Assembly: GCA_963422265.1 (NCBI GenBank)
Contig: OY729416.1
Location: 151,540 to 215,539 of the forward strand
Direction of reading: 5' to 3'
Length of the DNA: 64,000 bases
Source of the DNA: Thermodesulfobacteriota bacterium
GTDB lineage: Bacteria > Desulfobacterota_D > UBA1144 > Nemesobacterales > UBA2774
Part shown: one piece after another, positions 13,603 to 47,247 of the stretch
Position numbering within the stretch: position 1 is the first letter of the stretch
Layout: every line of letters begins with the position of its first letter
Made by a program: the position numbers and the translations under genes
The notes under the pieces: generated by a model
Told to the model about the DNA's origin: nothing
Databases searched by the model: none
What the model saw: the letters and a program-made list of their open reading frames with translations, nothing else

Positions 13603-14088
13603 TTATTTAGGACTAGACAGGAAATTTTCTGCCCTATGAACCTGTTGCACAATATCCGTTAGCAATTCTCCAATAATGACGTCTTCATGAGAATAACCAT
13701 ATACTCCGGAGTGTGATGGATCGCCATAAGTATGGTCAGGTTTCAATTCGGGTTTGTATAGAATCTGTATTTTCCTCCTATCATCAGTCTCCGCTTTTAC
13801 ATATTCAATTGCTCTTTGCACGTTTATTATTGGCAGCCGGTCATTCTTTTTAACTTTTAATTTATCTTTGTAGATATTTATTATATTTTGTACACAAACT
13901 TCTAGGTCTGTATTACCATCGTATTCAAGCCAATTCACCGACATATAATCTTCTTTAGGTCGCGGTAGTAACGCCTTTCCGTCTATTTTACCTCCGTTGT
14001 GAACAAGAGATTTCTTGACTAGTTTGGTTATATGTGACGTTGGTGGAAGTGGGTCGTTATCTTTCTCATTACCGACAAATCCATTCAT
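13603..14088 (-). CDS. Hypothetical protein (third gene of the AT-rich cassette)
   Basis: The ORF is open to 14133 (TTG); the first ATG is at 14088 (MNGFVGNEKD). No family recognised. It contains DPSHSGVYGY near the C-terminus. Very low GC. Confidence 0.55.
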   Translation of the reverse strand: MNGFVGNEKDNDPLPPTSHITKLVKKSLVHNGGKIDGKALLPRPKEDYMSVNWLEYDGNTDLEVCVQNIINIYKDKLKVKKNDRLPIINVQRAIEYVKAETDDRRKIQILYKPELKPDHTYGDPSHSGVYGYSHEDVIIGELLTDIVQQVHRAENFLSSPK

Positions 14089-14704
14089 CAGCTCCCATGG
14101 AAACCACAACTTGGTAAAGGCGCTCTTTATCAATTGTCCCGGTAGAACGCATAACTTTTCCTGTGTTGTTAGGATTAGGTGTGAAAATTACGTAAGTGTT
14201 AGTATCGTCAGGGTTAAACTCTACTGCTAAATGCTGTATTCTTGACTTACGCCACAACGCTCTAATATTACCTTCGTAAGTAACAATAAAAGAAGGTATG
14301 ATTAAATTATCGTTCTTTGTCAAGAAATCAGTAAAATTATTAAAGGATTCGAAACTTATTATTTTTTGCTCCGTATCTTGATCATCTTCAATATCTTCAA
14401 TTAATTCATAAGTTCTAGGGGTAATGTAATCATCAAAGTCAGGTCTTTCTCGATAAAGACTAAGCACCAAAGTTTTAATTCTTTTATGGCTATCTAGGTT
14501 GTCTTCCTCGATGTCTTTGTAATAGCCTAAACTTCTAAAAAGAGTAGAGTTCTCTTCTTCGTATACCTTGTAATAATTTGTTTTTAAATTTGTTTGGGGA
14601 GAGGCAGGTAATGTATCCAAATGAGTTGATACTCCAATACTAGGGGGAATGTTATTGTAGGATATAGATCGGTTCTCCTTAGGCTCCACATCAGTTAAAT
14701 TCAT
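14069..14704 (-). CDS. Hypothetical protein (second gene of the AT-rich cassette)
   Basis: The first ATG at 14704 overlaps the upstream stop as ATGA (14701-14704). The tracked ORF opens at 14725 with TTG. No motif recognised. Confidence 0.55.
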   Translation of the reverse strand: MNLTDVEPKENRSISYNNIPPSIGVSTHLDTLPASPQTNLKTNYYKVYEEENSTLFRSLGYYKDIEEDNLDSHKRIKTLVLSLYRERPDFDDYITPRTYELIEDIEDDQDTEQKIISFESFNNFTDFLTKNDNLIIPSFIVTYEGNIRALWRKSRIQHLAVEFNPDDTNTYVIFTPNPNNTGKVMRSTGTIDKERLYQVVVSMGADEWICR

Positions 14705-15471
14705 GAGACTTCCTTTTTCTCCCAATTAGTTTTTGTTGTATCACTATCAGTGAGTTTTTCAAAATTCTGCGTAAGCTGTTCGTGTACGTAATCAAACCAG
14801 TCGTTCATATTGTGGTTTGAGGAGTCAAACCCGCTCGCTCCATTTTCAAATACTATTATTTTTTGTTTCGTGTTCTTAAGTGTAGTTGTAAAGAGATTTA
14901 ATTTGAATATTCCTTTCTTAGCATCCGGCAAATCATAGATATAATTTAAGTTAAAGTCTTTAACTTCTTGACCGCTTAAAGTTTCAGGGAAGTCAAGGCG
15001 TTTAATTATATCTGAAAGTTCCTTGGCTTCTCTAAAGTCAAAGTTTTCTTTTAAGTGGTTTACATAATTGAATTCATATTTGAGCGGAGCAGGTTCATTA
15101 AAGCCTTTTTCTTTGAGGAATTCCAAGAATGATGAATAATTGTTGTTAAAGAGCCTGTTCATTTCACTATATTCAGGATATTGGTCTTCTCCTTCCACCT
15201 TGCGCCAATTGCATAGGAAGCAGTTGTTTTGTATCTGAACTAGTTTATTTAGTGATTCTGTGATGAACCAAAACCTGGGCGCGGGGTATATTTCGCTATT
15301 GCTTTGAATAGGCTTGCCATAGTTGGTGGCTTGTTCGGATTTTGGATATTTATCAATGATCTTTTCCCAAAACAAACCGATGTGTTCAGAGCGCAGACCA
15401 TAAATTGGGAGAAACTCTACGCCCATTACAACTTCAATTACCGGTGGTTTACTATATTTAGCAGTGTTCAT
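14701..15471 (-). CDS. TIGR04255-like family protein (function unknown)
   Basis: 256 aa. The N-terminus YSKPPVIEVVMGVEF matches my memory of the TIGR04255 N-terminal signature (Y..aP..Evv.e..F). The assignment is from memory only. Confidence 0.5.
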   Translation of the reverse strand: MNTAKYSKPPVIEVVMGVEFLPIYGLRSEHIGLFWEKIIDKYPKSEQATNYGKPIQSNSEIYPAPRFWFITESLNKLVQIQNNCFLCNWRKVEGEDQYPEYSEMNRLFNNNYSSFLEFLKEKGFNEPAPLKYEFNYVNHLKENFDFREAKELSDIIKRLDFPETLSGQEVKDFNLNYIYDLPDAKKGIFKLNLFTTTLKNTKQKIIVFENGASGFDSSNHNMNDWFDYVHEQLTQNFEKLTDSDTTKTNWEKKEVS

Positions 15472-37789: not shown

Positions 37790-38260
37790 TTGTCCCCGCC
37801 TTCGATCGAAATGACGGTGGAAATAGTCATTTACTCCTCATTCTCGACTTGATTAGAGGCCTAGCCTTGTAGGCGCGTGGGGAGTGAATTCCATTCTCCG
37901 TCATTCCTGTCCTCGAGTGAGAATCCGAAAGGTGAAACAGGGAACGAGGATATTCCTTACATGTATTTCCCCTTTAGGAAAGGGGGGTATGGGGGGATTT
38001 GTTCTTTAATCCTTTATATTCACAGCCCATCATTTCATCCCAAAAATCTATGTTCCTGCCTCCTAGCAGGGAACAGTTCAGGCTTTCTTTTCCCCTCTCC
38101 TAGAGGGAGAGGGATGCAGGGTGAGGGTGCTTTTGTCATTCCCGCCCCCGAGTGGGAATCCAGAAAGGGGATCGGGGGACGAGTATCCCTTCCTTATTTC
38201 CCATCCCATTCCTTACTAGATTCCTGCTTCAGTAGGAATGACGAAAGGGAAACGCGGAGT
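37790..38260. repeat. Hairpin-rich intergenic mosaic containing three GTCATTCC..GGAAT-type palindromic units plus other short palindromes
   Basis: Units at 37900-37926, 38135-38161 and 38219-38242 (inverted). Other hairpins are CCCCTTT-AGG-AAAGGGG (37969-37985), GTTCCTGC..GCAGGGAAC (38052-38074), and CCCTCTCC-TAGAG-GGAGAGGG (38093-38113). Related copies occur at 57.8 and 61.2 kb. Confidence 0.85.
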
Positions 38261-38634
38261 TTTTCTAAAACCCAAATCTTTCTCTTTGTCCATCTTCCCC
38301 AAGATGGATTGAGCAAAATATAGTTCCCGTTGAATTTATTACCCTCAGCTCTGAGCAGAATCTTTATCTTATTTTTAGTTTCTAACTGAAACTGCCCTTC
38401 ATCCCAGATTGTATAGTCGCCTTCATTGTTGATGCTATTACTTATAATATCTGTTTCTTTATCCCGGCAGGCATTACTTTGTTGAACGGCAAGCCTTCTT
38501 TGACCCGTTAGCTCTGGAATCCCATTGTATATATTCCATGACCTTGTTTGATTCTCAGGGTAGTGGAGCATTAGGCTATAGTAAAAACAGGGTGTGTTAT
38601 GCTTTCGCACCTCAAACCTAAAGGTTTCTCTCAT
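38194..38634 (-). CDS. LigD 3'-phosphoesterase (PE) domain-like protein, apparently degenerate
   Basis: FRFEVRKH..YYSLMLH...RSWNIYNGIPELTGQRRLAVQ...GDYTIWDEGQF...ILLRAEGNKFNGNYILL aligns by eye to the LigD PE pattern (F.iqKH.a..lHYDfRLE...kSWAvPkGPs.dp..kRLAv.vEDH...G.v.vWD.G.w...l.f.l.G.kl.G.w.L). The 3' third of the ORF runs into the repeat mosaic, and the start overlaps the coaX stop by 17 nt. Confidence 0.4.
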   Translation of the reverse strand: MRETFRFEVRKHNTPCFYYSLMLHYPENQTRSWNIYNGIPELTGQRRLAVQQSNACRDKETDIISNSINNEGDYTIWDEGQFQLETKNKIKILLRAEGNKFNGNYILLNPSWGRWTKRKIWVLEKLRVSLSSFLLKQESSKEWDGK

Positions 38635-39391: not shown

Positions 39392-39572
39392 GCTCCCTCC
39401 CCTTTTTGTATTATGCGCTTTAATTAGATAAGATGAGTTCCACAAGCCCTTCAGCCTTAATGCTTAGTGACCTTGATAAACTGACGCGAAGTTAGCTGAT
39501 CTTACCTAAATATCTCTCCCTTCTCAATGTTCGTTCACTTGGCTGTGAGTATGAGAAAAGGATGGAATAATA

Positions 39573-42500
39573 ATGGGAAACTTCATAACGAACAACGCAA
39601 CCAAGAGCCTCAAAAGGCGTTTGGTTGAGCTTATTGAAAAAAGTGAAGAGTTAAAGTTTCTAGTAGGTTTTTTCTACTTTTCAGGTATTGAGGAACTTCA
39701 CAATGGAATAAAATCAAAACCTGAAGCCGTAATGAAGGTTCTTGTCGGCTTAAACGTTGACCATTCAAACTTTGGGTTGATTGAGTTTGCAGAGGATGGA
39801 AAAACATCGGATCAAGAGAAGATTGATAAGTTTTGTGAATCCGTTAAAAAATCCCTGGATACGGACGATTTTGACGTTAGGGAATTTTACGAGCAGGTCA
39901 GATTTTTTATTGATCTGATTCGTGAAGACAGGTTAATAATTCGTAAAACCTTTAAGCCCAACCATGCCAAACTATACATATTCAAGCTTGATCAAAGTCA
40001 GGTCGGCAGGCGTAGCCTCTTTGTAACCGGTAGCAGTAATCTGACAAGATCCGGACTTTCTATGCAGGATGAATTCAACGTAGAAATTGGCGACTACGGC
40101 TTTGAAGACGCCGAGAGCTATTTCGATGATCTATGGGACAGGGCTGTCAAAATAACGGAATACGAAGATACTAAAAAGAAACTGATTAAAATTGTTGAAC
40201 AAGAGACACTGGTTAAGGAGGTTACCCCATTTGAGGCGTTTTGTCTTGTGTTAAAGACCTATTTAGATTCATTCAAACAAAAAGATATTGGCGGATTACT
40301 CATAGAGATATTAGAGAAAAATGGATATAAGGAGTATAGATATCAGCTTGACGCCGTAGAGCAAGCGCTAGCTATAATTGAAAGCAATAACGGCGTAATA
40401 GTAGCCGACGTCGTTGGTCTTGGTAAAAGCGTTGTTGCCTGCGCAATTGCTAAGCATCTGAAGAAACGCGGCGTAATTATATGTCCTCCCGGACTTATTG
40501 GGGATGCAAGCAGAGATAGTGGTTGGAAGAAATACGTTGAAGACTTTCGTCTTTACGAGTGGGAAGTTCGCTCGCTTGGCGATCTGGAAAACACTTTAGA
40601 ATTTGTTAAAAAAGCCAAAGATATTGAAGTTGTCATCGTTGATGAGGCGCACCGTTTTAGAAATCAGGATACGAAGGGATATGAGCTTCTCAAAAATATC
40701 TGTCGTGAGAAGCAGGTTATATTACTAACGGCTACTCCATTTAACAATAGGCCAGGAGACATTCTTTCACTTCTAAAACTTTTTATAAATCCTAAAAAAT
40801 CTTCTATTACTTTAGACGGCAATCTGGTTAATCAATTTAGAGTATTTAAGGAGATTTTTGATAGGATTGCCTACATAAAAAAACACTGCAATTCCCCTGA
40901 CTCTTCTAAAAGAAAGAAAGCGGAAAACTACTATAAGTCTTTATTTGAAGAAGAAGCGGTGAATCTAAATAAAGTAGCGCGGCGCGCTCGTTATTTGTCA
41001 AAGCAAATTAGGGATGTAATTGAGCCTGTTACCATAAGGCGCAACCGCTTAGATTTGCGGAATAACCCTCTTTATAAAAATGAAGTAGAAAAATTCTCGA
41101 AGGTGGCTGACCCTATAGAATGGTTTTTTGAACTGAGTAGTGAGCAGTCGGAGTTTTACTCAAGAATAATTGAACATTATTTTGGGGATCCGGAGGGTGG
41201 CAGGCGATTCAAAGGGGCGATTTATCGACCATTTGAATATGAGATAGACGTTGAAAAAGATATAGGCGAAGGTAATAACCGGCAATTACAGCAACAGCGC
41301 AACTTATTTGATTTTATGCGACGGTTGCTTGTAAAGCGTTTTGAGAGTTCCTTTGGTTCGTTTAAGCAGAGTATCAAAAACTTTAAGAAAATTACAGAGA
41401 GCTGTAAGAAATTCATTGATAAAACAGGTGAGTATATTCTTGACCGCGCCCTTTTGGAAAAAATCTATGAATTAGACCTTGAGGAGATTGAAGAACGCCT
41501 GCTTGATTATGAAGAAAAAATAAACAGGGACGAATATCCGAAAAATCATAAACGCTATAAGTTAAAGAATTTTAAGCGTAGGGATGAGTTTATATCTGAT
41601 TTAGAGTCCGATCTTGACTTATTTGATGAAATTCTAAAAATGCTCTCAACGCTGGATTTAGTCCAAAGCGACCCCAAGATGTCTTGCCTAATACAGAATA
41701 TAAAAAGAGAGCTAAAGAAAAAGCCGAAGGCAGGAGAACCAAAGCGGAAAATTATCATTTTCTCTGAATACGTTGATACGGTGCGTTATTTGAGTAAGGC
41801 GATTAAGGAGGAATTTGGAAGCAGGACGCTAGTAGTAGATGGACCCTTGTTTAATTCAGGGATCAAGCAAATAAATGAAAACTTCGACGCGTCTTATCCT
41901 AAGCAAAAGGAAGATTATGATATCCTACTTAGCTCCGATAAAATTTCTGAGGGCTTTAATCTCAACCGTGCTGGTATGGTGATTAACTACGATATTCCAT
42001 GGAATCCCGTCCGGGTCATCCAGAGATTGGGAAGAATTAATCGTATCAGCAAAAGAGTGTTTGATGAGCTTTTCATCATCAACTTTTTCCCAACCGAAAG
42101 AGGGGCTAAGCACGTGCGATCTCGTGAAATAGCTACCGATAAGATGCTTCTAATTCATGCCGCGCTTGGAGAAGATTCCAAGATTTTTGATATTGACGAG
42201 GAGCCTTCCCCATCTGGCTTGTTTAACAGAATTCAGCAAAATCCAGATAGTAGGGAAGAGGAAAGTTTCTATACTAAAGCTCTCAGAAGGTTTTTGAAGA
42301 TTAAGGACAATCATCCAGAATTGATTAAAAATCTAGATGGCTATCCGCCACGAATTAAGGTAGCCAAAAAACATAGTGAAAATGAGCTTTTGGTTTTCTT
42401 TAAGAAGGTCCGCTTATACGTAACGGCTGCTAGTACCGACGTAGAAAACCTTAAACCGTATTATATGGATTTTGAAGATGCGTTTGACAAGATTGTCTGC

Positions 42501-42893
42501 ACGAACGATGAAGAAGGGATAGACTGGAATACGGATCAATTCTGGAGGGCTTATCAAAGGATCAAGGAGTTTAAGGATTACTCTTCGAGATCAAATAGCG
42601 AGCAGAGTTTGGAGCAAAAAGCTCTAAACAATCTCGACTTTCTTGCCAGAAGTGATAAAGAAGAACTGATGCCTCTTAAAGACTTCCTACGCACTCTAAG
42701 GGATGATATTGCTTATTACGGCACGCTTTCAGATTATACTATGCGCCGAATAGCCAATTTCAAAGAGAATTCTAGTGAAGACGTTAAGAAGCTGATGGAT
42801 GAGTTAGGCAAAGATTATTTGCTCAGAGAAAAAAGCCGTGAAAAAGCCCAGAAAAGAGAAGTCATTATAGCTATTGAGAATAAAAAAGCATGA
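39573..42893 (+). CDS. PLD(HKD)-family nuclease domain fused to an SNF2/SF2 helicase-translocase
   Basis: The N-terminal PLD module has H131-x-K133 (NHAKLYIF, codon CAT at 39963) plus GSSNLT. The SNF2 motor has motif I GLGKS (40416-40430), motif II DEAH (40641-40652), TATPFNN, and C-terminal DKISEGFNLNRAGMVINYDIPWNPVRVIQRLGRINR. The remaining ~300 aa of C-terminus has no recognisable motif. Confidence 0.88.
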   Translation: MGNFITNNATKSLKRRLVELIEKSEELKFLVGFFYFSGIEELHNGIKSKPEAVMKVLVGLNVDHSNFGLIEFAEDGKTSDQEKIDKFCESVKKSLDTDDFDVREFYEQVRFFIDLIREDRLIIRKTFKPNHAKLYIFKLDQSQVGRRSLFVTGSSNLTRSGLSMQDEFNVEIGDYGFEDAESYFDDLWDRAVKITEYEDTKKKLIKIVEQETLVKEVTPFEAFCLVLKTYLDSFKQKDIGGLLIEILEKNGYKEYRYQLDAVEQALAIIESNNGVIVADVVGLGKSVVACAIAKHLKKRGVIICPPGLIGDASRDSGWKKYVEDFRLYEWEVRSLGDLENTLEFVKKAKDIEVVIVDEAHRFRNQDTKGYELLKNICREKQVILLTATPFNNRPGDILSLLKLFINPKKSSITLDGNLVNQFRVFKEIFDRIAYIKKHCNSPDSSKRKKAENYYKSLFEEEAVNLNKVARRARYLSKQIRDVIEPVTIRRNRLDLRNNPLYKNEVEKFSKVADPIEWFFELSSEQSEFYSRIIEHYFGDPEGGRRFKGAIYRPFEYEIDVEKDIGEGNNRQLQQQRNLFDFMRRLLVKRFESSFGSFKQSIKNFKKITESCKKFIDKTGEYILDRALLEKIYELDLEEIEERLLDYEEKINRDEYPKNHKRYKLKNFKRRDEFISDLESDLDLFDEILKMLSTLDLVQSDPKMSCLIQNIKRELKKKPKAGEPKRKIIIFSEYVDTVRYLSKAIKEEFGSRTLVVDGPLFNSGIKQINENFDASYPKQKEDYDILLSSDKISEGFNLNRAGMVINYDIPWNPVRVIQRLGRINRISKRVFDELFIINFFPTERGAKHVRSREIATDKMLLIHAALGEDSKIFDIDEEPSPSGLFNRIQQNPDSREEESFYTKALRRFLKIKDNHPELIKNLDGYPPRIKVAKKHSENELLVFFKKVRLYVTAASTDVENLKPYYMDFEDAFDKIVCTNDEEGIDWNTDQFWRAYQRIKEFKDYSSRSNSEQSLEQKALNNLDFLARSDKEELMPLKDFLRTLRDDIAYYGTLSDYTMRRIANFKENSSEDVKKLMDELGKDYLLREKSREKAQKREVIIAIENKKA

Positions 42894-45800
42894 GCGAAGC
42901 CTTACGACGTTTAGAGTCAATAATTCATGGTGATAGCTTCTCGGTCGAGGACTTCAATCTCTTTTTTCGGGAGAAAAGCAGGGACTACATACAACTAGAT
43001 CAGCGTTGCTCTAACTATGAAGATGAGGAGTTCAAAGACATTGTTAAACTCGGCAAGATTAAATTTCCTGATGGAGATAGCCGCCTTATCTGCTTCTCTA
43101 TAAAAGTCCTAAACAATCTCACCGAGCGCGCGGGCAAGAAGAAACAATATGAGAAAGCCAAAAGGATATTGAAATCAGATGAAGGTGGAATGAACTCAAC
43201 TGGTATATTCATTTTTTACGATTCAGGCGGTAGCTTCCGATTTTCCCTTATTTATTCAGAATCGTTTGGAACAAGAAATAAGTGGAGCAATTTTCGCCGA
43301 TTTACGTATTTCGTTGACAAAAGCCTAACTAACAAAACCTTTAAGCATCAAATCGGTGAAGGCGATTTCTCAACTCTAGAGGCAATCAAAGACGCCTTCT
43401 CAGTTGAGAAGGTTACCAAGGAATTCTATCAAGCAATTGCTAACTGGTATTTCTGGGTGGTTGGACTATCTCAATTTCCCAAGGATGCGGAGGCGGAAGA
43501 GGGCGGGCGCAATATCTCTATTATTAGGCTTATAACGCGGATAATTTTCATCTGGTTTATGCGCGAGCGGGGATTGGTGTCCAAAGACTTATTTGATAAG
43601 ACATCTATAAAACAGATTCTAAAACACTTTGATCCACTTGATTCAGAAGACTCTAATTACTATAAAGCTATTCTACAGAATCTGTTTTTCGCTACGCTTA
43701 GTGCTAAAAAAGAAGAACGCAAGTTCAGAACAGAGCAACGAGGGTATAAAGGCTATAATCGTCACTTTGGCTATAAATACGTCTTCCGTTATCACGCGCT
43801 CTTCAAAAATCCTGATAAGATAAAAGACATATTTGATGATACTCCTTTCCTAAACGGCGGGCTTTTTGAGTGCTTGGATGATAGAAAGAAAGACGTTTTC
43901 ATTGATGGTTTTACAGACGTTAAAAAACATCAGCCTACCGTGCCAAACCTGCTTTTCTTTAGTGATGAGAAGGCGGTAGATCTAAATAAGTTTTATGGCA
44001 CGAAAAACAAAACTCACAAAGTGCGAGGGCTTCTTAATACCCTTTCCTCGTTTAATTTTACTATAGATGAGAACACGCCGGATGATCAAGACGTTGCACT
44101 TGATCCAGAGCTACTAGGACGAGTCTTTGAAAATCTACTCGCCAGTTTTAACCCGCAGACCTCCACGACTGCCCGCAAAGCTACGGGAAGCTATTATACG
44201 CCTAGAAAAATTGTGGATTACATGGTTACCGAATCACTCAAGGCTTACTTAAAAACTAGTCTCGAGAATGAGGGTATAGAAGACGTAGATGGCAAACTTA
44301 AGAGTTTATTCATTGTGGACAACGAGGAAAATCCTTTTGACGAACGGCAATCAAGGAAGCTAGTTGATTTGATTGAAAGCGTCAGAATCGTTGATCCTGC
44401 CGTTGGTTCAGGCGCGTTTCCAATGGGAGTGCTTAATAAGCTGGTGTTTATTCTCAATAAGGTTGATCCGGATAACAAGTTATGGAAGTCGGCTCAACTC
44501 AAGGTGGTGGATGCTATATCTGATCCTAGCGCGAGGCGGAAAGCTAGGGAGAGCATAGAGAAGTTTTTTGAAGGGAAGAACGCCGATTATGGTAGAAAGT
44601 TGTATTTGATCCAACGGTGTATTTACGGTGTTGATATTCAGCAAATTGCGGTTGAGATTGCCAAACTCCGATTTTTTATATCTCTTCTGGTTGATGAAAG
44701 GATTGATAAGGATTCTTATAACCATGGCATAGAACCCTTGCCAAACCTAGATTTCAAGATTATGCAGGGGAATAGCCTGATTGAACTTATTTCCTATACC
44801 ATTACAAAAGACAGGGAAAGAGATGAAATAGTTAGAGAACTGAAAAAGCTGAAAGATGAATTGTTTAGCATTGCCTTACCAGAAGCGAAGCGTAACAAGC
44901 GAGATGAAATAGAAAGATTGACTGAAAAACTCTTTGAACGGGATAGGAGTAAAAAGATAGAAGAATATGAACTAGAAATAAAGGCAATAGAGGCACAGGA
45001 TGGGCTATTTGAGGATAGTGGAGCTAGAAGGAGACAGAAAGAGAATGAGAAAAAGATAAATGAATACAAATTGAAAATTGAAAGGATTAGAAATCTACAA
45101 GTTCTGGGACCTGCAGATCACTTTGAATGGCATATCTACTTTTCTGAGGTCTTTCAAGAAAACGAGGGGTTTGACATAGTAATAGGCAACCCGCCTTATG
45201 GCGTCAAAATCAGCCAGGCTAATCTGAAAGCTATCAAAGCAAATATTCGCGATACGAAAAATACCAACAGCGCGGCACTGTTTGCTGACTATGCAAAAAA
45301 CCGTTTCATTAACAAAGATGGAGTGGTGTCCCTGATTGTTCCCAAGTCTTTGTTGTTTTCAGAAAGATGGCTGGATTTGGCGTTTGGATTACTGCCTAAA
45401 ACAGTAGTGCTGGTGGATGTTGAAAAGGCATTTGAGAGGGTCAAGCTGGAGCAGGTGGTACTCATTTGGTCAGCCAAGTGTAATGACAACTTTTATATCG
45501 GGCGTAAGTTTCTCAACAATACTTTTATGCAAACGACCCAAATCAATAGAAAATATCCGAAAAAGTTTCAGGCGTGGATATGTTCTGTGTCAGAAGTGGA
45601 AATTGCTCTGGGCAGTAAGATCTCCAGCATTGGGACATTCCTCCGCAAGGTTTCAAAGACCAGCAGAGGTTTGGCAATACAGAAAGACCTTGCGCCGACC
45701 GGTGATATACCCGTGCTTGGAGGCAAAGAGATTAGGCGCTACGCCATCCGTGGCATAAAAGGCTATATCAGCCGTGAACATCTAGACATGAACAGCCGCA

Positions 45801-46267
45801 AGGTTCAGTTCTTGCTTCAGCCGAAAGTGATTTCTCAGAGACTTGTGGCTCATATTCAGAATCCTCAGCTTCATGTCAAAATAATTTCTACGGTTGATAA
45901 AGTTGGCGATATATTGAGTGTTGATACGGTGGAAAACACGGTTATTACAGATGAAATTTTTAGTCCGGTTTTTATCTCGTCTCTTTTTAATTCAGTGCTC
46001 ATAAACTGGTACGCTTACAGATTTATTTTTTGTTCCGCAATTAGAACTATGGATTTCGATAATTACTATGTAGGCAAGATTCCTGTTCCCATTGTTATGA
46101 CTGAACAGCAAGCACCGATCATCGCCCTGGCAACGGATATTCTCGCTGCCAAAGCCGCCGACCCGAATGCGGACACTACCGCTTTGGAAGGGGAAGTTGA
46201 TCGGCTGATCTATGGGTTATACGGACTGACGGAGGAGGAAATAGCGGTGGTAGAGAAACGCGAATGA
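42890..46267 (+). CDS. N6-adenine DNA methyltransferase, gamma class, Eco57I/PglX/DrmMI-like large single-chain enzyme
   Basis: TGSYYTPRKIVDYMV, motif I DPAVGSGAFP (from 44393), YGVDIQQIAVEIAKLRF, QGNSLIE, motif IV FDIVIGNPPYG (NPPY at 45188-45199), and a C-terminal recognition region ending RLIYGLYGLTEEEIAVVE. The ATG overlaps the upstream stop (ATGA at 42890-42893). Confidence 0.9.
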   Translation: MSEALRRLESIIHGDSFSVEDFNLFFREKSRDYIQLDQRCSNYEDEEFKDIVKLGKIKFPDGDSRLICFSIKVLNNLTERAGKKKQYEKAKRILKSDEGGMNSTGIFIFYDSGGSFRFSLIYSESFGTRNKWSNFRRFTYFVDKSLTNKTFKHQIGEGDFSTLEAIKDAFSVEKVTKEFYQAIANWYFWVVGLSQFPKDAEAEEGGRNISIIRLITRIIFIWFMRERGLVSKDLFDKTSIKQILKHFDPLDSEDSNYYKAILQNLFFATLSAKKEERKFRTEQRGYKGYNRHFGYKYVFRYHALFKNPDKIKDIFDDTPFLNGGLFECLDDRKKDVFIDGFTDVKKHQPTVPNLLFFSDEKAVDLNKFYGTKNKTHKVRGLLNTLSSFNFTIDENTPDDQDVALDPELLGRVFENLLASFNPQTSTTARKATGSYYTPRKIVDYMVTESLKAYLKTSLENEGIEDVDGKLKSLFIVDNEENPFDERQSRKLVDLIESVRIVDPAVGSGAFPMGVLNKLVFILNKVDPDNKLWKSAQLKVVDAISDPSARRKARESIEKFFEGKNADYGRKLYLIQRCIYGVDIQQIAVEIAKLRFFISLLVDERIDKDSYNHGIEPLPNLDFKIMQGNSLIELISYTITKDRERDEIVRELKKLKDELFSIALPEAKRNKRDEIERLTEKLFERDRSKKIEEYELEIKAIEAQDGLFEDSGARRRQKENEKKINEYKLKIERIRNLQVLGPADHFEWHIYFSEVFQENEGFDIVIGNPPYGVKISQANLKAIKANIRDTKNTNSAALFADYAKNRFINKDGVVSLIVPKSLLFSERWLDLAFGLLPKTVVLVDVEKAFERVKLEQVVLIWSAKCNDNFYIGRKFLNNTFMQTTQINRKYPKKFQAWICSVSEVEIALGSKISSIGTFLRKVSKTSRGLAIQKDLAPTGDIPVLGGKEIRRYAIRGIKGYISREHLDMNSRKVQFLLQPKVISQRLVAHIQNPQLHVKIISTVDKVGDILSVDTVENTVITDEIFSPVFISSLFNSVLINWYAYRFIFCSAIRTMDFDNYYVGKIPVPIVMTEQQAPIIALATDILAAKAADPNADTTALEGEVDRLIYGLYGLTEEEIAVVEKRE

Positions 46268-47247
46268 AATCCCCTTGTAAAGAACTACTTGACCGGGCGA
46301 TAGCCACAACCGTTGCTGCCATCGATATTTACAATAAGCCGGACTTTCTTTATCGGGCGGAAACCTTTTCCATTCTGGCAATCAATGGTTGGGAACTGCT
46401 TCTGAAAGCGAAGTGGCTCAGTGAGCATGACGACAAAATTCGCTCTATTTATATGACGGAACCCGCGAAGAAAGACGGGACAAAAAGCGAGCACAATCAA
46501 TCGGAAATCAAACGCACTCGTTCGGGGAATCCGATTACGCACAGCTTATACTACCTCGCGAAAAAGCTTGTTGAACAGAAGCATTTGAGCCAAACGGCAA
46601 TGGGTAATATAGAAGCATTGCTTGAATTGCGTAATTCTTCCGTTCATTTTTACAATCAATCCGACACAGCATTAGCGTCCCGACTTCAAGGAATAGGTGC
46701 CGCTAGTCTCAAAAACTTCGTTTTAGCCGTGAGAGGGTGGTTTGATCGTGACTTGAGCGAATTTAATTTTTACCTGATGCCCCTGTCGTTCGTGTGTCTG
46801 CCTCAACAGATGGACGCCATTGTCTTCAAAGAAGAAGAGCAGAATTTCCTGAGATATCTGAAACAGCTTGAGGAGATGACAGATGAGGAAGATTCTGGAT
46901 ACGCTGTCACGCTCAACATTGACGTGAGGTTTACGCGTTCCAAGTCAAAGGACGTTCCCGAGGTTCGTCCTACGAAAAATCCTGATGCGCCCGAGGTTCG
47001 CCTGACGGAAGAACAGATTCGGGAACAATACCCTTGGGACTACGACAAACTGATAAAAGAGTGTGTTGAGCGATATGCAAATTTCAAGTGCAACCCCGAA
47101 TTCCACGACATCAAAAGGAGGCTACTTGAAGAGGATAGGTTTTGCCATGTCCGCTACCTTAACCCCTACAATAAAAAGAGTTCAAATAAGAAGTTCTATA
47201 AAGCCAACATCCTGCAGGAGTTAGATAAGCATTACTCGCGGAAATAA
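46264..47247 (+). CDS. HEPN-like (R-x4-H) protein, DUF3644-like N-terminus; function unknown
   Basis: The ATG overlaps the methyltransferase stop (ATGA at 46264-46267). The N-terminal AAIDIYNKPDFLYRAETFSILAINGWELLLKAKWL resembles DUF3644 as I remember it. LLELRNSSVHF (R123..H128, about 46630-46647) fits the HEPN Rx4-6H motif. Confidence 0.7.
   Translation: MKSPCKELLDRAIATTVAAIDIYNKPDFLYRAETFSILAINGWELLLKAKWLSEHDDKIRSIYMTEPAKKDGTKSEHNQSEIKRTRSGNPITHSLYYLAKKLVEQKHLSQTAMGNIEALLELRNSSVHFYNQSDTALASRLQGIGAASLKNFVLAVRGWFDRDLSEFNFYLMPLSFVCLPQQMDAIVFKEEEQNFLRYLKQLEEMTDEEDSGYAVTLNIDVRFTRSKSKDVPEVRPTKNPDAPEVRLTEEQIREQYPWDYDKLIKECVERYANFKCNPEFHDIKRRLLEEDRFCHVRYLNPYNKKSSNKKFYKANILQELDKHYSRK

What the first reader, a model, noticed from the sequence alone, without database searches (positions are those of the whole stretch)
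39573..47247. Coupled PLD-nuclease/SNF2-helicase + large N6A methyltransferase + HEPN-like gene: a defence cassette that fits no canonical system
Operon structure: three + strand genes are joined by ATGA stop/start overlaps at 42890-42893 and 46264-46267, so they are almost certainly one expression unit. They sit between the housekeeping gene coaX and a VKOR gene.

Gene content:
- Gene 1 (1106 aa) fuses a PLD/HKD nuclease-like module (NHAKLYIF...GSSNLT) to a complete SNF2 motor (GLGKS, DEAH, TATPFNN, QRLGRINR).
- Gene 2 (1125 aa) is a gamma-class N6-adenine DNA methyltransferase of the Eco57I/PglX/DrmMI kind (GSYYTP, DPAVGSGAFP, GNPPYG, LYGLTEEEI tail). I could not spot a PD-(D/E)xK nuclease in it by eye.
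- Gene 3 carries a HEPN-type R-x4-H motif.

Comparison with known systems:
- The parts list recalls class 1 DISARM (SNF2 DrmD, PLD DrmC, methylase DrmMI), but the DISARM core DrmA/DrmB (DUF1998) is absent from the window.
- It recalls BREX only through the methylase; PglZ, BrxC and BrxL are absent.
- It recalls NgoAVII/CglI-type ATP-dependent restriction (PLD nuclease plus helicase), but here the two are fused and paired with a very different methylase.

Composition: the first ~5.6 kb is clearly more AT-rich than flanking genes (sampled lines 30-42% GC against ~45%), which argues for horizontal acquisition.

Working model (inference): the methylase marks self DNA. The PLD-SNF2 protein translocates on and cuts unmodified DNA. 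The HEPN protein adds an RNA-targeting or abortive layer.
Basis: partly seen in the sequence, partly recalled or inferred. Interest (0 to 1): 0.8.

Follow-up and report, generated by a model that had tools for sequence, protein, structure and literature searches.

The report
Two-gene PLD-helicase/methylase restriction system plus HEPN
The cassette is real, but it is two things: a widespread, unnamed two-gene restriction-modification-like system (a nuclease-motor protein plus a large adenine methylase with no nuclease of its own), and a separately mobile HEPN ribonuclease gene of a known candidate defence family that recombined onto its end.

Summary
All three ORFs, both ATGA overlaps, the quoted motifs and the coaX/VKOR flanks are confirmed. 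The AT-richness is weaker than stated.

- **Gene 1** is a single-HKD PLD nuclease fused to a complete SNF2 ATPase. All catalytic motifs stay invariant in relatives down to ~25% identity.
- **Gene 2** is an Eco57I/Type IIG-like N6-adenine methylase with a hypervariable TRD. Its conserved N-terminal 200-aa module has no conserved acidic residue, so it has no nuclease of its own.
- **The pair** is the conserved unit. At least 595 reference species carry a gene 1 relative. A gene 2 relative lies on the same strand within 10 kb in 53 of 62 loci with adequate flank.
- **Gene 3** is a DUF3644 HEPN protein (PADLOC PDC-S19, E 8e-126; Rx4H invariant). It is absent from 0 of 95 gene 1 loci and usually follows Type I R-M genes elsewhere. 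It appears to have arrived as a "methylase-tail + HEPN" block.

No DUF499, DUF3780, DrmA/B, PglZ or BrxC is present, so membership of MANTIS/Type-2 BR, DISARM and BREX fails. The best reading is a minimal ATP-dependent R-M system (a split Type ISP/MANTIS-like logic) with an auxiliary HEPN effector. That makes it a new variant of a known kind, and it is untested experimentally.

The parts
39558..39565 (+). Possible ribosome-binding site (AAGGATGG) about 8-10 nt upstream of the gene 1 ATG, in the 127-bp divergent intergenic region shared with coaX
   Evidence: Read directly from the sequence. The promoter scan found nothing convincing on the + strand here. Inference only.
39573..42893 (+). Gene 1: PLD(HKD) nuclease fused to an SNF2 ATPase, 1106 aa. 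Predicted motor-nuclease (restriction) subunit.
   Evidence: ORF. Pfam PLDc_2, SNF2-rel_dom, ResIII, Helicase_C. Best PADLOC hit is PDLC01075 'C3a139 HKD+Snf2', E 1.7e-33 over residues 7-875, followed by DrmD models. More than 4800 homologues, the best at 66-74% identity over full length in many phyla.
39963..40040 (+). The single HKD catalytic motif (H131-x-K133 ... G153-S-S-N156). One motif per chain implies that a dimer forms the active site.
   Evidence: H131, K133, G153, S154, S155 and N156 are invariant in the 21-sequence alignment A3. They are conserved in relatives down to ~25% identity. The dimer inference rests on BfiI/Nuc and on the MtsD structure described.
40335..42092 (+). SNF2 ATPase core: Walker A GLGKS 282-286, DEAH 357-360, TATP 386-389, motif VI QRLGRINR 817-824
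   Evidence: G282, G284, K285, D357, E358, H360, T386-P389, Q817, R818, G820, R821 and R824 are invariant. They are conserved in distant relatives. PDB sequence hits are to SNF2/Rad54, DDM1, ISWI and RapA.
42093..42890 (+). Gene 1 C-terminal region (~aa 841-1106), conserved within the family, no assignable domain
   Evidence: No Pfam hit even at E = 10. Conserved positions are listed in A3. Function unknown.
42890..46267 (+). Gene 2: gamma-class N6-adenine DNA methyltransferase with TRD, 1125 aa. Predicted modification and specificity subunit.
   Evidence: ORF. Pfam Eco57I 1.6e-23 and TaqI_C. PADLOC REase_MTase_IIG 2e-50, but those profile matches start only at about residue 308-379 and miss the nuclease part of the profiles; DrmMI 2.5e-24.
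42890..43489 (+). Gene 2 N-terminal module (aa 1-200): family-specific alpha/beta domain without catalytic acidic residues. Proposed docking or coupling module for gene 1.
   Evidence: No invariant or nearly invariant D or E in residues 1-200 across 44 sequences. The invariant residues are Q86, R117, S119, R137, T139 and aromatics. The AF2 model (residues 1-400) has pLDDT 87.9. Foldseek found nothing significant; the weak hits are REase-fold proteins. No Pfam hit. 423 clusters in 1.84 billion representatives, always N-terminal. It stays 48% identical in L003, where the rest of the methylase is 20-27%.
43490..44089 (+). Helical module with the FLNGGLFE motif (aa 320) that precedes the methylase domain
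   Evidence: Invariant N322, G323, G324, F326. Sub-threshold DUF7814 match.
44090..45379 (+). Methyltransferase catalytic domain: motif X GSYYTP 433, motif I DPAVGSGAF 502, motif IV NPPY 767
   Evidence: Motifs conserved in A1.
45380..46144 (+). Target-recognition domain (TaqI_C type), hypervariable
   Evidence: Only 7-22% identity to 12 orthologues, against mostly 30-70% elsewhere in the protein for gene-1-clade partners. tblastn alignments to orthologues usually stop at about residue 770-840.
46126..47247 (+). 'Methylase tail + HEPN gene' block of separate origin (last ~40 codons of gene 2 plus gene 3)
   Evidence: blastn similarity (68-73%) to gene-3-bearing loci L019/L024/L030/L039 begins at window ~46139-46150, i.e. 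115-125 nt before the gene 3 ATG. The tail of the L023 methylase matches window 46126-46248. Gene 3 GC3 is z = +1.9 against gene 1 z = -1.2.
46264..47247 (+). Gene 3: DUF3644-type HEPN protein (PADLOC PDC-S19 family), 327 aa. Predicted auxiliary RNase effector.
   Evidence: Pfam DUF3644 3.8e-45. PADLOC PDC-S19 7.8e-126 over the full length. 1322 homologues. Foldseek top ~28 hits are almost all HEPN toxins, probability 0.9-0.99. phrog_9605 1.2e-16.
46630..46647 (+). HEPN Rx4H catalytic motif (R123-N-S-S-V-H128)
   Evidence: R123 and H128 are invariant in 40 sequences. The equivalent histidine of HEC-08 (H128) is required for defence.
46774..47244 (+). Gene 3 C-terminal half (aa 171-327): conserved but structurally unresolved
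   Evidence: pLDDT below 50 over most of it. No Pfam hit at E = 10. Invariant P257, W258, Y260, C267, K275, H281, R297.

Best explanation
The locus combines two units.

**(1) Genes 1 and 2 form a minimal two-protein, ATP-dependent restriction-modification-like system.**
- The methylase (gene 2) reads a specific DNA target through its variable TRD and methylates adenine there to mark host DNA. By analogy with single-TRD gamma-class enzymes, the target is probably short and asymmetric.
- The methylase has no nuclease of its own.
- When it sits on an unmethylated site, it recruits or licenses the gene 1 protein, probably through its conserved N-terminal 200-aa module.
- Gene 1 has one HKD motif per chain, so it must dimerise to build one PLD active site. 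It uses its SNF2 ATPase to translocate on or remodel DNA, and it cuts the foreign DNA.

**(2) Gene 3 is an independent HEPN ribonuclease of the R-M-operon-associated DUF3644/PDC-S19 family.** It was recombined onto the 3' end of the methylase gene and is translationally coupled to it. It acts as a second-line or backup effector, not as a core subunit.

**Shown:** domain content, motif conservation, absence of nuclease residues in gene 2, gene 1-gene 2 co-occurrence, TRD hypervariability, and the independent distribution of gene 3.

**Inferred:** physical coupling through the N-terminal module, dimerisation, hemimethylation, DNA cleavage, and RNase activity.
For: - **Coupling and gene order.** ATGA overlaps. 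A gene 2 relative lies on the same strand within 10 kb of a gene 1 relative in 53 of 62 loci with at least 3.5 kb of downstream flank. Six of the 9 misses have under 2.6 kb of upstream flank (first sample 15 of 18).
- **Reciprocal test.** Methylases carrying the N-terminal module sit beside a PLD-SNF2 gene in 3 of 4 long contigs.
- **Distant clade.** The same pair occurs in a clade only 24-34% (gene 1) and 32-36% (gene 2) identical, and on plasmids of Parabacteroides distasonis and Allomeiothermus silvanus.
- **Gene 1 competence.** HxK...GSSN, GLGK[ST], DE[AS]H, [TS]ATP and QRxGRxxRI are invariant or conserved.
- **Gene 2 competence.** Motifs I, IV and X are present.
- **No nuclease in gene 2.** No conserved acidic residue in aa 1-200. 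Type IIG profiles match only from about aa 308. No significant structural match.
- **Specificity diversification.** TRD 7-22% identical, against mostly 30-70% elsewhere.
- **Mobility.** 66-74% identical gene 1 orthologues in Lentisphaerae, Nitrospirae, CPR and other phyla.
- **Defence context.** SIR2+HerA, AbiE, Schlafen/AlbA_2, AAA_15+DUF3226 and TIR genes are embedded in or appended to the pair.
- **Mechanistic precedent.** MANTIS MtsD is an N-terminal PLD plus SF2 dimer with one active site, acting downstream of a site-reading methylase. HKD-SF2 helicase fusions are recognised restriction components.
- **Gene 3.** PDC-S19 at 8e-126; Rx4H invariant; HEPN fold; 0 of 95 gene 1 loci carry it. 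The neighbours of its relatives are mostly Type I R-M genes. The tail + gene 3 block is shown. HEPN and Schlafen RNases are described as the commonest auxiliary or backup effectors of BREX/BR loci.
Against: - No experiment exists for this pair. Methylation, cleavage and protection are all inferred.
- The characterised analogue MANTIS needs two extra proteins (MtsA and MtsB) even for methylation. DISARM and BREX also need more parts. A two-protein system may therefore be incomplete, or may depend on unlinked factors.
- The role of the gene 2 N-terminal module as a docking domain rests only on conservation pattern and co-occurrence. No complex prediction could be run.
- Some gene 1 loci with full flanks have no gene 2-like methylase (L001 and L169).
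- PLDc_2 only just reaches its Pfam cutoff (27.1 against 27.0).
- The gene 3 model is poor over its C-terminal half.
- About 9 of the 80 closest gene 3 loci do carry a distant version of the pair, so a functional link between gene 3 and such pairs is not excluded.
Confidence: 0.6

Rival explanations
1. This is an obligate three-component system. The methylase, the PLD-SNF2 protein and the HEPN protein work together as one machine, with the HEPN protein as an integral RNA-targeting or abortive arm.
For: All three genes are translationally coupled by ATGA overlaps. The closest gene 3 relatives (60-68% identity) in L019/L024, L021/L023, L027, L030, L036, L039 and L099 also lie downstream of a distant PLD-SNF2 plus Eco57I-type methylase pair.
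Against: 0 of 95 loci found with gene 1 as bait contain a gene 3 relative. About 70 of the 80 gene 3 loci lack the pair. The immediate upstream partners elsewhere are HsdS, HsdM, HsdR, GmrSD or Shedu. The slot after the pair holds unrelated defence genes in other genomes. Gene 3 has a different composition and arrived with its own piece of methylase tail.
Confidence: 0.08
2. These are two independent systems that merely sit together. Gene 2 is a self-contained Type IIG restriction-modification enzyme, as PADLOC or DefenseFinder would call it. Gene 1 is an autonomous SauUSI-like (Type IV-like) PLD-helicase nuclease.
For: The best PADLOC hits of gene 2 are REase_MTase_IIG models. PLD-helicase fusions do act autonomously in SauUSI. 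Some gene 1 loci lack a gene 2-like neighbour (L001, L169).
Against: The Type IIG profiles match only the methylase part (from about aa 308), not their nuclease part. The N-terminal 200 aa have no conserved D or E, so a PD-(D/E)xK site is impossible. The module occurs only on these methylases, and these sit next to PLD-SNF2 genes. Gene 1 has no detectable modified-base reader (no DUF3427/SRA) and is not close to SauUSI by sequence. A methylase without a nuclease, next to a nuclease without a specificity domain, is the signature of one system.
Confidence: 0.1
3. It is a BREX/DISARM-like exclusion module that marks self by methylation but blocks invaders without classical site-directed cleavage, or that needs further host-encoded or unlinked partners (a loader ATPase as in MANTIS/BREX).
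For: The SNF2 + PglX-like methylase module is a building block of BREX-3, DISARM-1, ARMADA-II and BR systems, which all use additional proteins. In MANTIS, even methylation needs MtsA and MtsB, and restriction could not be reconstituted in vitro.
Against: The pair recurs alone between housekeeping genes in many phyla. No DUF499-, BrxC-, PglZ- or DrmA/B-sized gene is in the window. The HKD catalytic residues are strictly conserved, which argues for real phosphodiester cleavage.
Confidence: 0.17
4. It has a non-defence function: an epigenetic regulator (orphan methylase) with an SNF2 remodeller or repair nuclease.
For: SNF2 proteins such as RapA have housekeeping roles. The locus sits between housekeeping genes with no mobile-element hallmarks.
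Against: Hypervariable TRD. Patchy distribution with near-identical orthologues across phyla. Presence on plasmids. Constant company of defence genes.
Confidence: 0.03

Closest known systems
MANTIS / Type-2 BREX-related (BR) system (formerly Gao_RL; Hma is the related DUF499-centred group)
   Same: The effector architecture is the same: an N-terminal single-HKD PLD nuclease fused to an SF2-type ATPase. In MtsD this dimerises to make one active site. It is paired with an N6-adenine methylase whose TRD reads the target. The logic is restriction of unmethylated DNA.
   Different: There is no DUF499 AAA+ ATPase (MtsA) and no DUF3780 protein (MtsB) in the window. Gene 1 matches PADLOC PLD_Helicase, HmaA and NCBIfam phospholipD_antiphage only partially and far below cutoff (97 bits against a cutoff of 1100). 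The methylase is a 1125-aa Eco57I/Type IIG-like enzyme with its own N-terminal module.
Class 1 DISARM (DrmA, DrmB, DrmC, DrmD, DrmMI)
   Same: The gene 1 helicase part scores best against DrmD among named families (NCBIfam 1.4e-42; several PADLOC DrmD models). Gene 2 hits DrmMI (2.5e-24). The PLD corresponds functionally to DrmC.
   Different: DrmA and DrmB (DUF1998), the defining core, are absent. PLD and SNF2 are fused. The DrmD score of 146 bits is far below the equivalog cutoff of 610. PADLOC requires all five genes.
Type IIG / Type IIL restriction-modification enzymes (Eco57I, MmeI, BpuSI)
   Same: The methylase-TRD half is of the same kind: a gamma-class N6A methylase with Eco57I and MmeI_Mtase Pfam hits, a TaqI_C TRD and the LYGLTEEEI tail.
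   Different: There is no PD-(D/E)xK nuclease domain. The N-terminal 200 aa lack any conserved acidic residue, and the nuclease part of the IIG profiles is not matched. Cleavage is delegated to a separate ATP-dependent protein.
Type ISP enzymes (LlaGI, LlaBIII) and Type III R-M (own knowledge of these families)
   Same: The functional set is the same: nuclease + SF2 motor + gamma-type methylase + single TRD, with ATP-dependent restriction from asymmetric, hemimethylated sites.
   Different: The functions are split over two polypeptides. The nuclease is PLD, not Mrr/PD-(D/E)xK. The motor is SNF2-family. Type III Mod is a beta-class methylase and Res carries a PD-(D/E)xK nuclease.
C3a139 'HKD+Snf2' cluster (Shah et al. 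2018, PMC6546367; PADLOC PDLC01075)
   Same: This is the best profile match for gene 1 (E 1.7e-33, residues 7-875 on profile positions 6-776 of 948), with the same two-domain architecture.
   Different: It was described only as a gene seen near Type III CRISPR-cas cassettes in four genomes. No partner methylase and no function were assigned.
PDC-S19 / DUF3644 (EC042_2821-type) HEPN proteins; HEC-08; Ishtar
   Same: Gene 3 matches PDC-S19 over its full length (7.8e-126). It has the DUF3644 HEPN domain with an invariant Rx4H motif. The family is reported to occur in R-M operons. DUF3644 HEPN proteins have shown anti-phage (HEC-08) and anti-plasmid (Ishtar) activity.
   Different: PDC-S19 itself is an untested candidate. 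HEC-08 has C-terminal zinc ribbons, which gene 3 lacks (only one invariant Cys).

Membership tests
Type-2 BR / MANTIS | DUF499 AAA+ ATPase (MtsA) in the locus | tested here: not met
   Outside the cassette only three ORFs of at least 800 aa exist in the 64-kb window, and all are housekeeping (CarB, GyrB, TamB).
Type-2 BR / MANTIS | Small DUF3780 protein (MtsB) in the locus (present in 98% of Type-2 BR) | tested here: not met
   The cassette has exactly three overlapping genes and none is DUF3780. The flanks are CoaX, a LigD_N-domain ORF and VKOR.
Type-2 BR / MANTIS | N-terminal HKD nuclease fused to an SF2/SNF2 helicase effector | tested here: met
   The architecture is met. However, the family-level profiles (PADLOC PLD_Helicase 4e-18, HmaA 1.8e-27; NCBIfam phospholipD_antiphage 97 bits against a cutoff of 1100) match only part of the helicase.
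Class 1 DISARM | DrmA helicase and DrmB (DUF1998) core | tested here: not met
   No such ORFs in the window. PADLOC requires all five genes.
Class 1 DISARM | DrmD SNF2 helicase at equivalog level | tested here: not met
   NF038317 scores 146 bits against a cutoff of 610.
BREX (types 1-6) | PglZ phosphatase and BrxC ATPase | tested here: not met
   Absent from the window. PglX models are hit only weakly by gene 2 (24.8 bits against a cutoff of 400).
Type IIG restriction-modification enzyme | Endonuclease domain (PD-(D/E)xK) in the same polypeptide as the methylase | tested here: not met
   No invariant or nearly invariant D or E in aa 1-200 across 44 sequences. IIG profiles align only from about aa 308. 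Foldseek found nothing significant. No Pfam domain.
Type IIG restriction-modification enzyme | Gamma-class N6A methylase (motifs X-I-IV) followed by a TRD | tested here: met
   GSYYTP 433, DPAVGSGAF 502, NPPY 767. Eco57I and TaqI_C Pfam hits.
NgoAVII/CglI-type ATP-dependent restriction | Separate PLD+B3-domain R protein, separate helicase N protein, C5-cytosine methylase | tested here: not met
   PLD and helicase are fused. RE_NgoFVII is only a sub-threshold hit (18.5 bits against 23.8). The methylase is N6A.
SauUSI-type Type IV enzyme | PLD + SF2 helicase + C-terminal modified-cytosine reader (DUF3427), acting alone on modified DNA | tested here: not met
   No DUF3427 or other reader detected in gene 1. 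No sequence hit to SauUSI in the PDB search. Gene 1 is obligately paired with a methylase. Activity on modified DNA is not testable here.
PDC-S19 (PADLOC phage-defence candidate), gene 3 | Full-length match to the family profile | tested here: met
   PDLC04954, E 7.8e-126, residues 2-326 on profile positions 2-327 of 330.
HEPN superfamily (DUF3644 / EC042_2821 family), gene 3 | Helical HEPN fold with a conserved Rx4-6H motif | tested here: met
   DUF3644 3.8e-45. R123 and H128 invariant. Foldseek top hits are HepT, SO_3166 and sacsin HEPN at probability 0.9-0.99, although E is only ~0.04 and the model is moderate (pLDDT ~80 in this domain).
HEC-08 | DUF3644 HEPN followed by C-terminal zinc-ribbon domains | tested here: not met
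   The C-terminal half has a single invariant Cys (C267) and no CxxC pairs. No Zn-ribbon Pfam hit.
Ishtar anti-plasmid proteins | [quoted passage not shown] | not testable with these tools
   The layout is compatible, but no Ishtar sequence was available, and the C-terminal half of the gene 3 model has low confidence.

The most novel reading that the evidence does not exclude
Genes 1+2 define a distinct, widespread class of minimal two-protein ATP-dependent restriction-modification system, found in at least 595 reference species. It would be a 'split Type ISP with a PLD-SNF2 motor'. A Type IIG-like methylase has replaced its nuclease domain with a family-specific N-terminal docking module that recruits a dimeric PLD-SNF2 motor-nuclease. 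It would be the simplest free-standing form of the SNF2 + PglX-like methylase module buried inside BREX-3, DISARM-1, ARMADA and MANTIS. It is currently mis-annotated as Type IIG R-M.
Probability: 0.5. Interest if true: 0.65.

Novelty: new variant of a known kind. Interest (0 to 1): 0.5.

Why it matters
**A simpler model system.** BREX, DISARM, ARMADA and MANTIS share a 'site-reading methylase + SF2/SNF2 motor' module whose coupling is still poorly understood. MANTIS restriction has not been reconstituted in vitro. If the two-protein reading holds, this pair is a far simpler, naturally minimal version of that module. It could show how a methylase bound at an unmodified site licenses a motor-nuclease.

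**Annotation.** Automatic pipelines would label gene 2 as a complete Type IIG R-M enzyme although it has no nuclease, and would leave gene 1 unassigned.

**Modular accretion.** The 'methylase tail + HEPN' block suggests a concrete recombination route by which auxiliary effectors are appended to R-M operons.

**Tractability.** Cultured carriers make the system experimentally accessible: Parabacteroides distasonis, Fervidobacterium thailandense, Anaerolinea thermolimosa and Thermus/Allomeiothermus plasmids.

Tried and rejected
- **Type IIG with its own nuclease: rejected.** No conserved acidic residues in the N-terminus, and the profile matches exclude the nuclease part.
- **Sequence search of all three proteins against PDB chains.** Gene 2 gave no hit. 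Gene 3 gave only a chance hit. Gene 1 gave only generic SNF2 or DEAD hits. A profile of the gene 2 N-terminus found only a marginal HsdM hit in the methylase motif region.
- **Foldseek of the gene 2 N-terminal model.** Nothing significant (best E 0.03). The weak REase-fold hits (CidB/CinB, Cas4-like, tRNA endonuclease) are suggestive only.
- **Lenient Pfam scans** of the gene 1 C-terminus, the gene 2 N-terminus and the gene 3 C-terminus found nothing.
- **Single-sequence locus scan with gene 3** found nothing. The alignment-based scan worked.
- **Host identification.** The neighbouring RNase E/G gene gave only 31-34% relatives. Lookup of the source contig failed. The host lineage remains unknown.
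- **Island borders.** No tRNA, Rfam family, integrase or credible flanking repeats.
- **Phage collection.** No gene 1 relative.
- **Literature.** I found no paper naming the two-gene pair. 'PDC-S19' occurs in no searchable paper.
- **Low-GC patch at 13.6-15.5 kb.** Three ORFs have no credible Pfam, PADLOC or PHROG match; the only hit is a chance-level PADLOC PDC-M32A match at E 0.0077.

Full report
**1. Observation**

Both junctions read ATGA, so each stop overlaps the next start. Every quoted motif is present.

The flanks are a type III pantothenate kinase (CoaX, minus strand) and a VKOR-family gene. A small LigD_N-domain ORF lies next to coaX.

Outside the cassette, the only ORFs of at least 800 aa in the 64-kb window are CarB, GyrB and TamB. 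There is therefore no room for DrmA/B, PglZ, BrxC/DUF499 or BrxL.

The composition argument is weaker than stated. Measured against 40 other genes of the window (mean GC 0.442, sd 0.027):
- gene 1 has GC 0.388 (z = -2.0);
- gene 2 has GC 0.413 (z = -1.1);
- gene 3 deviates the other way (GC3 0.518, z = +1.9).

No tRNA, integrase, Rfam element or convincing flanking repeat marks the borders.

**2. Gene 1**

Pfam finds PLDc_2 (residues 126-188, 27.1 bits, just over its cutoff) plus SNF2-rel_dom, ResIII and Helicase_C.

The best PADLOC model is PDLC01075 'C3a139, HKD+Snf2' (E 1.7e-33, residues 7-875), followed by DrmD, BrxH, HmaA, DpdE and PLD_Helicase models that cover only the helicase. All NCBIfam hits are far below their cutoffs: DrmD 146 against 610 bits, and phospholipD_antiphage 97 against 1100.

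C3a139 turns out to be a cluster noted by Shah et al. 2018 only because it lay near Type III CRISPR cassettes in four genomes.

In an alignment of 21 relatives the following are invariant:
- H131, K133 and G153-S-S-N156 (the HKD motif);
- G282, G284 and K285 (Walker A);
- D357, E358 and H360;
- T386-A-T-P389;
- Q817, R818, G820, R821 and R824.

The same motifs persist in relatives at 25-35% identity. There is one HKD motif per chain. PLD nucleases build one site from two motifs, and the cryo-EM structure of the MANTIS effector MtsD is exactly such a dimer. A dimer is therefore inferred.

The C-terminal ~265 aa are conserved but unassignable.

**3. Gene 2**

It is a gamma-class N6-adenine methylase with an Eco57I Pfam hit (1.6e-23), motifs X (GSYYTP 433), I (DPAVGSGAF 502) and IV (NPPY 767), and a TaqI_C-type TRD.

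PADLOC's best hits are 'REase_MTase_IIG'. The aligned parts start only at about residue 308-379 of the protein and at about position 330 of the profiles. The nuclease part of the Type IIG models is therefore not matched.

The N-terminal 400 aa have more than 1400 relatives. In a 44-sequence alignment, the first 200 residues contain no invariant or nearly invariant Asp or Glu. The conserved positions are Q86, R117, S119, R137, T139, several Lys/Arg and aromatics. A metal-dependent PD-(D/E)xK site is thus excluded.

The AF2 model is confident (pLDDT 87.9) and shows an alpha-beta-beta-beta-alpha-beta-beta arrangement. Foldseek finds nothing significant. The weak top hits are restriction-endonuclease-fold proteins (CidB/CinB, Cas4-like, tRNA-splicing endonuclease). 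A degenerate REase fold is possible but not shown.

An exhaustive search of 1.84 billion representatives finds this 200-aa module in only 423 clusters. It is always at the N-terminus, and in full-length hits the proteins are ~1000-1250 aa.

Across 12 orthologues the TRD (831-1085) is 7-22% identical, while the other regions are mostly 30-70% identical among gene-1-clade partners. In L003 the N-terminal module remains 48% identical although the helical and catalytic parts have dropped to 20-27%. This is the pattern expected if the TRD diversifies specificity and the N-terminal module tracks the conserved partner.

**4. The conserved unit is the pair**

With gene 1 as bait, 15 of the first 18 reference-genome loci had a gene 2 relative immediately adjacent.

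In the combined set, 62 loci have at least 3.5 kb of downstream flank. Of these, 53 carry a gene 2 relative on the same strand within 10 kb: downstream in 31 and upstream in 22. Six of the nine misses have truncated upstream flanks.

Reciprocally, methylases with the N-terminal module sit next to a PLD-SNF2 gene in 3 of 4 long contigs. The fourth looks like a decayed remnant.

A deeper clade, only 24-34% and 32-36% identical, shows the same pairing.

The pair is also on plasmids of cultured bacteria. In Parabacteroides distasonis it is annotated merely as 'SNF2-related protein' and 'N-6 DNA methylase'.

Gene 1 orthologues at 66-74% identity occur in Lentisphaerae, Nitrospirae, Patescibacteria/CPR, Delongbacteria and other phyla. 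That is much stronger evidence of horizontal mobility than GC content.

**5. Variable cargo**

The positions between or after the two genes hold different defence genes in different genomes:
- L001: Schlafen/AlbA_2 + HATPase_c_4, AAA_15 + DUF3226, and DUF6577 + AbiEii;
- L015: SIR2 + HerA;
- L004: a PD-(D/E)xK protein;
- L021: a toxin-antitoxin pair and ThsB-TIR genes;
- L111: AbiE;
- P. distasonis plasmid: Schlafen-like and TIR genes.

This is the 'embedding' phenomenon that Payne et al. described for Hma, BREX, DISARM and Type I R-M.

**6. Gene 3**

It is DUF3644 (E 3.8e-45) and matches PADLOC PDC-S19 over its full length (E 7.8e-126). PDC-S19 is one of the untested 'guilt-by-embedding' candidates.

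DUF3644 was defined as a HEPN family (EC042_2821) that 'occurs in R-M system operons'. A DUF3644 protein, HEC-08, protects against phage and needs the Rx4-6H histidine. DUF3644 or DUF4145 HEPN proteins (Ishtar) eliminate the conjugative plasmid RP4.

In gene 3, R123 and H128 are invariant in 40 relatives. The N-terminal domain of the AF2 model (pLDDT ~80) retrieves HEPN toxins almost exclusively (HepT, SO_3166, sacsin HEPN; probability 0.9-0.99). The C-terminal half is conserved but unresolved.

Distribution:
- 380 reference species have a relative.
- None of the 95 gene 1 loci has one.
- Of the 80 best gene 3 loci, about 9 carry the distant-clade PLD-SNF2 + methylase pair upstream. These are among the closest gene 3 relatives.
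- Ten other loci examined show, as the immediate upstream neighbour, HsdS or an HsdM-HsdS fusion (6), HsdM, HsdR, GmrSD and an Eco57I-type methylase (one each).
- One relative sits beside Shedu on a Tn7-like element.

At the DNA level, similarity between the window and gene-3-bearing loci starts 115-125 nt before the gene 3 ATG, inside the conserved tail of the methylase. In L019/L024 the same 4-nt-overlap junction exists between a 46-aa tail ORF and the HEPN gene.

Gene 3 therefore looks like a separately mobile auxiliary gene that recombines onto the 3' end of R-M specificity or methylase genes. The ATGA overlap travels with it.

**7. Mechanism**

Shown:
- a methylase with a specificity domain but no nuclease;
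- a nuclease-motor with intact catalytic motifs but no recognisable specificity domain;
- their tight, strand-conserved, cross-phylum linkage;
- a hypervariable TRD;
- a defence-gene neighbourhood.

Inferred:
- The methylase marks host DNA at its target. Because it is a single-TRD gamma enzyme, like Type IIG, Type ISP, BREX and MANTIS methylases, the target is probably asymmetric and hemimethylated.
- At unmodified sites, the methylase recruits or licenses a dimer of the PLD-SNF2 protein through its N-terminal module.
- ATP hydrolysis drives translocation or remodelling, and the single composite PLD site cuts both strands in turn.
- The HEPN protein is a second-line RNase, in line with the 'auxiliary/backup effector' role proposed for HEPN and Schlafen RNases in BREX/BR loci.

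I put this at about 0.6.

The main rival (0.17) is that the pair, like MANTIS, BREX or DISARM, needs additional factors or does not act by simple cleavage. In MANTIS even methylation needs MtsA and MtsB, and cleavage has not been reconstituted. 'Two independent systems' (0.10) and 'obligate three-gene system' (0.08) are disfavoured by the data in sections 3-6.

**8. Comparison with known systems**

It works like an ATP-dependent Type I/III/ISP-type R-M system and, most closely, like MANTIS/Type-2 BR. It fails the membership tests of every named system:
- MANTIS/BR: no DUF499 and no DUF3780.
- DISARM: no DrmA/B.
- BREX: no PglZ and no BrxC.
- Type IIG: no nuclease in the methylase.
- NgoAVII/CglI: fused rather than separate R and N proteins, and an N6A rather than a C5 methylase.
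- SauUSI: no modified-base reader.

[quoted passage not shown] In the searchable literature I found no paper that names or tests this two-gene pair. REBASE could not be consulted.

**9. Verdict**

It is a new variant of a known kind: a widespread, unnamed and uncharacterised minimal methylase + PLD-SNF2 restriction system, decorated here with a known candidate HEPN gene.

Interest is moderate (0.5). A specialist would not be shocked by the parts list. However, the system is abundant, mis-annotated, minimal and present in cultured organisms, so it could make the coupling problem of BREX/DISARM/MANTIS-type defences directly testable.

Noticed in passing
window 46126-47247; L019 8864-9978; L023 6786-6908: Nucleotide similarity between the window and gene-3-bearing loci starts inside the last ~40 codons of the methylase. 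This suggests that a 'methylase tail (LYGLTEEEI) + HEPN gene' block moves by recombination at the conserved tail. In L019 the tail is a separate 46-aa ORF that overlaps the HEPN start by 4 nt.
   Followed up: partly
L109 7001-10724; L110 7001-11035; L111 514-4038; L112 7001-10231: In four long contigs the gene 2-type methylase is split into two or three ORFs. The break falls after the N-terminal + helical part (~500-645 aa). This could be frameshift errors in MAGs, decay, or a genuine split variant. L112 (Dissulfurispira thermophila) also lacks the helicase.
   Followed up: no
L113-L189 versus L001-L018: Two gene orders exist, always on the same strand. Helicase-then-methylase (as in the window) occurs mostly in the closer relatives. 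Methylase-then-helicase, often with 1-3 kb between the aligned parts, occurs in the ~46-50% identity clade.
   Followed up: partly
L001 13333-14802; L108 6433-7977; L019 4750-5073: A Schlafen/AlbA_2 + HATPase_c_4 ('RNA-binding domain-containing') gene recurs directly beside or between the two core genes in unrelated genomes. In L019 it is only a fragment.
   Followed up: no
window 38194-38634 (- strand): A 146-aa ORF with a LigD 3'-phosphoesterase domain (PF13298, 5e-11) lies just downstream of coaX and overlaps its end by 17 nt. The + strand ORF at 37877-38323 has no match and is probably spurious.
   Followed up: partly
window 13603-15471 (- strand): This is the lowest-GC patch of the window (0.35-0.39). 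It holds three consecutive ORFs (175, 217 and 255 aa) with no credible Pfam, PADLOC or PHROG match (only a chance-level PADLOC PDC-M32A hit, E 0.0077), between gyrB and an NADH dehydrogenase subunit gene.
   Followed up: partly
window 46957-47010: A 21-nt imperfect direct repeat (CCCGAGGTTCG...) within gene 3 encodes a duplicated PEVR peptide (..VPEVRPTKNPDAPEVRLTEE..). It lies in the low-confidence linker before the C-terminal domain.
   Followed up: no
window 46264-47247: Gene 3 also matches a phage protein family of unknown function (phrog_9605, E 1.2e-16, full length). Relatives of this HEPN protein are therefore carried by phages as well.
   Followed up: no
L001 and L169 (full 10-kb flanks): A minority of gene 1 orthologues have no gene 2-like methylase within 10 kb on either side. 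In L001 the downstream genes are all other defence genes, followed by a large TPR-like ORF.
   Followed up: partly
whole window: The host lineage could not be identified. The RNase E/G neighbour has only 31-34% identical relatives among the species representatives, and the source contig (1.78 Mb) is not retrievable.
   Followed up: partly
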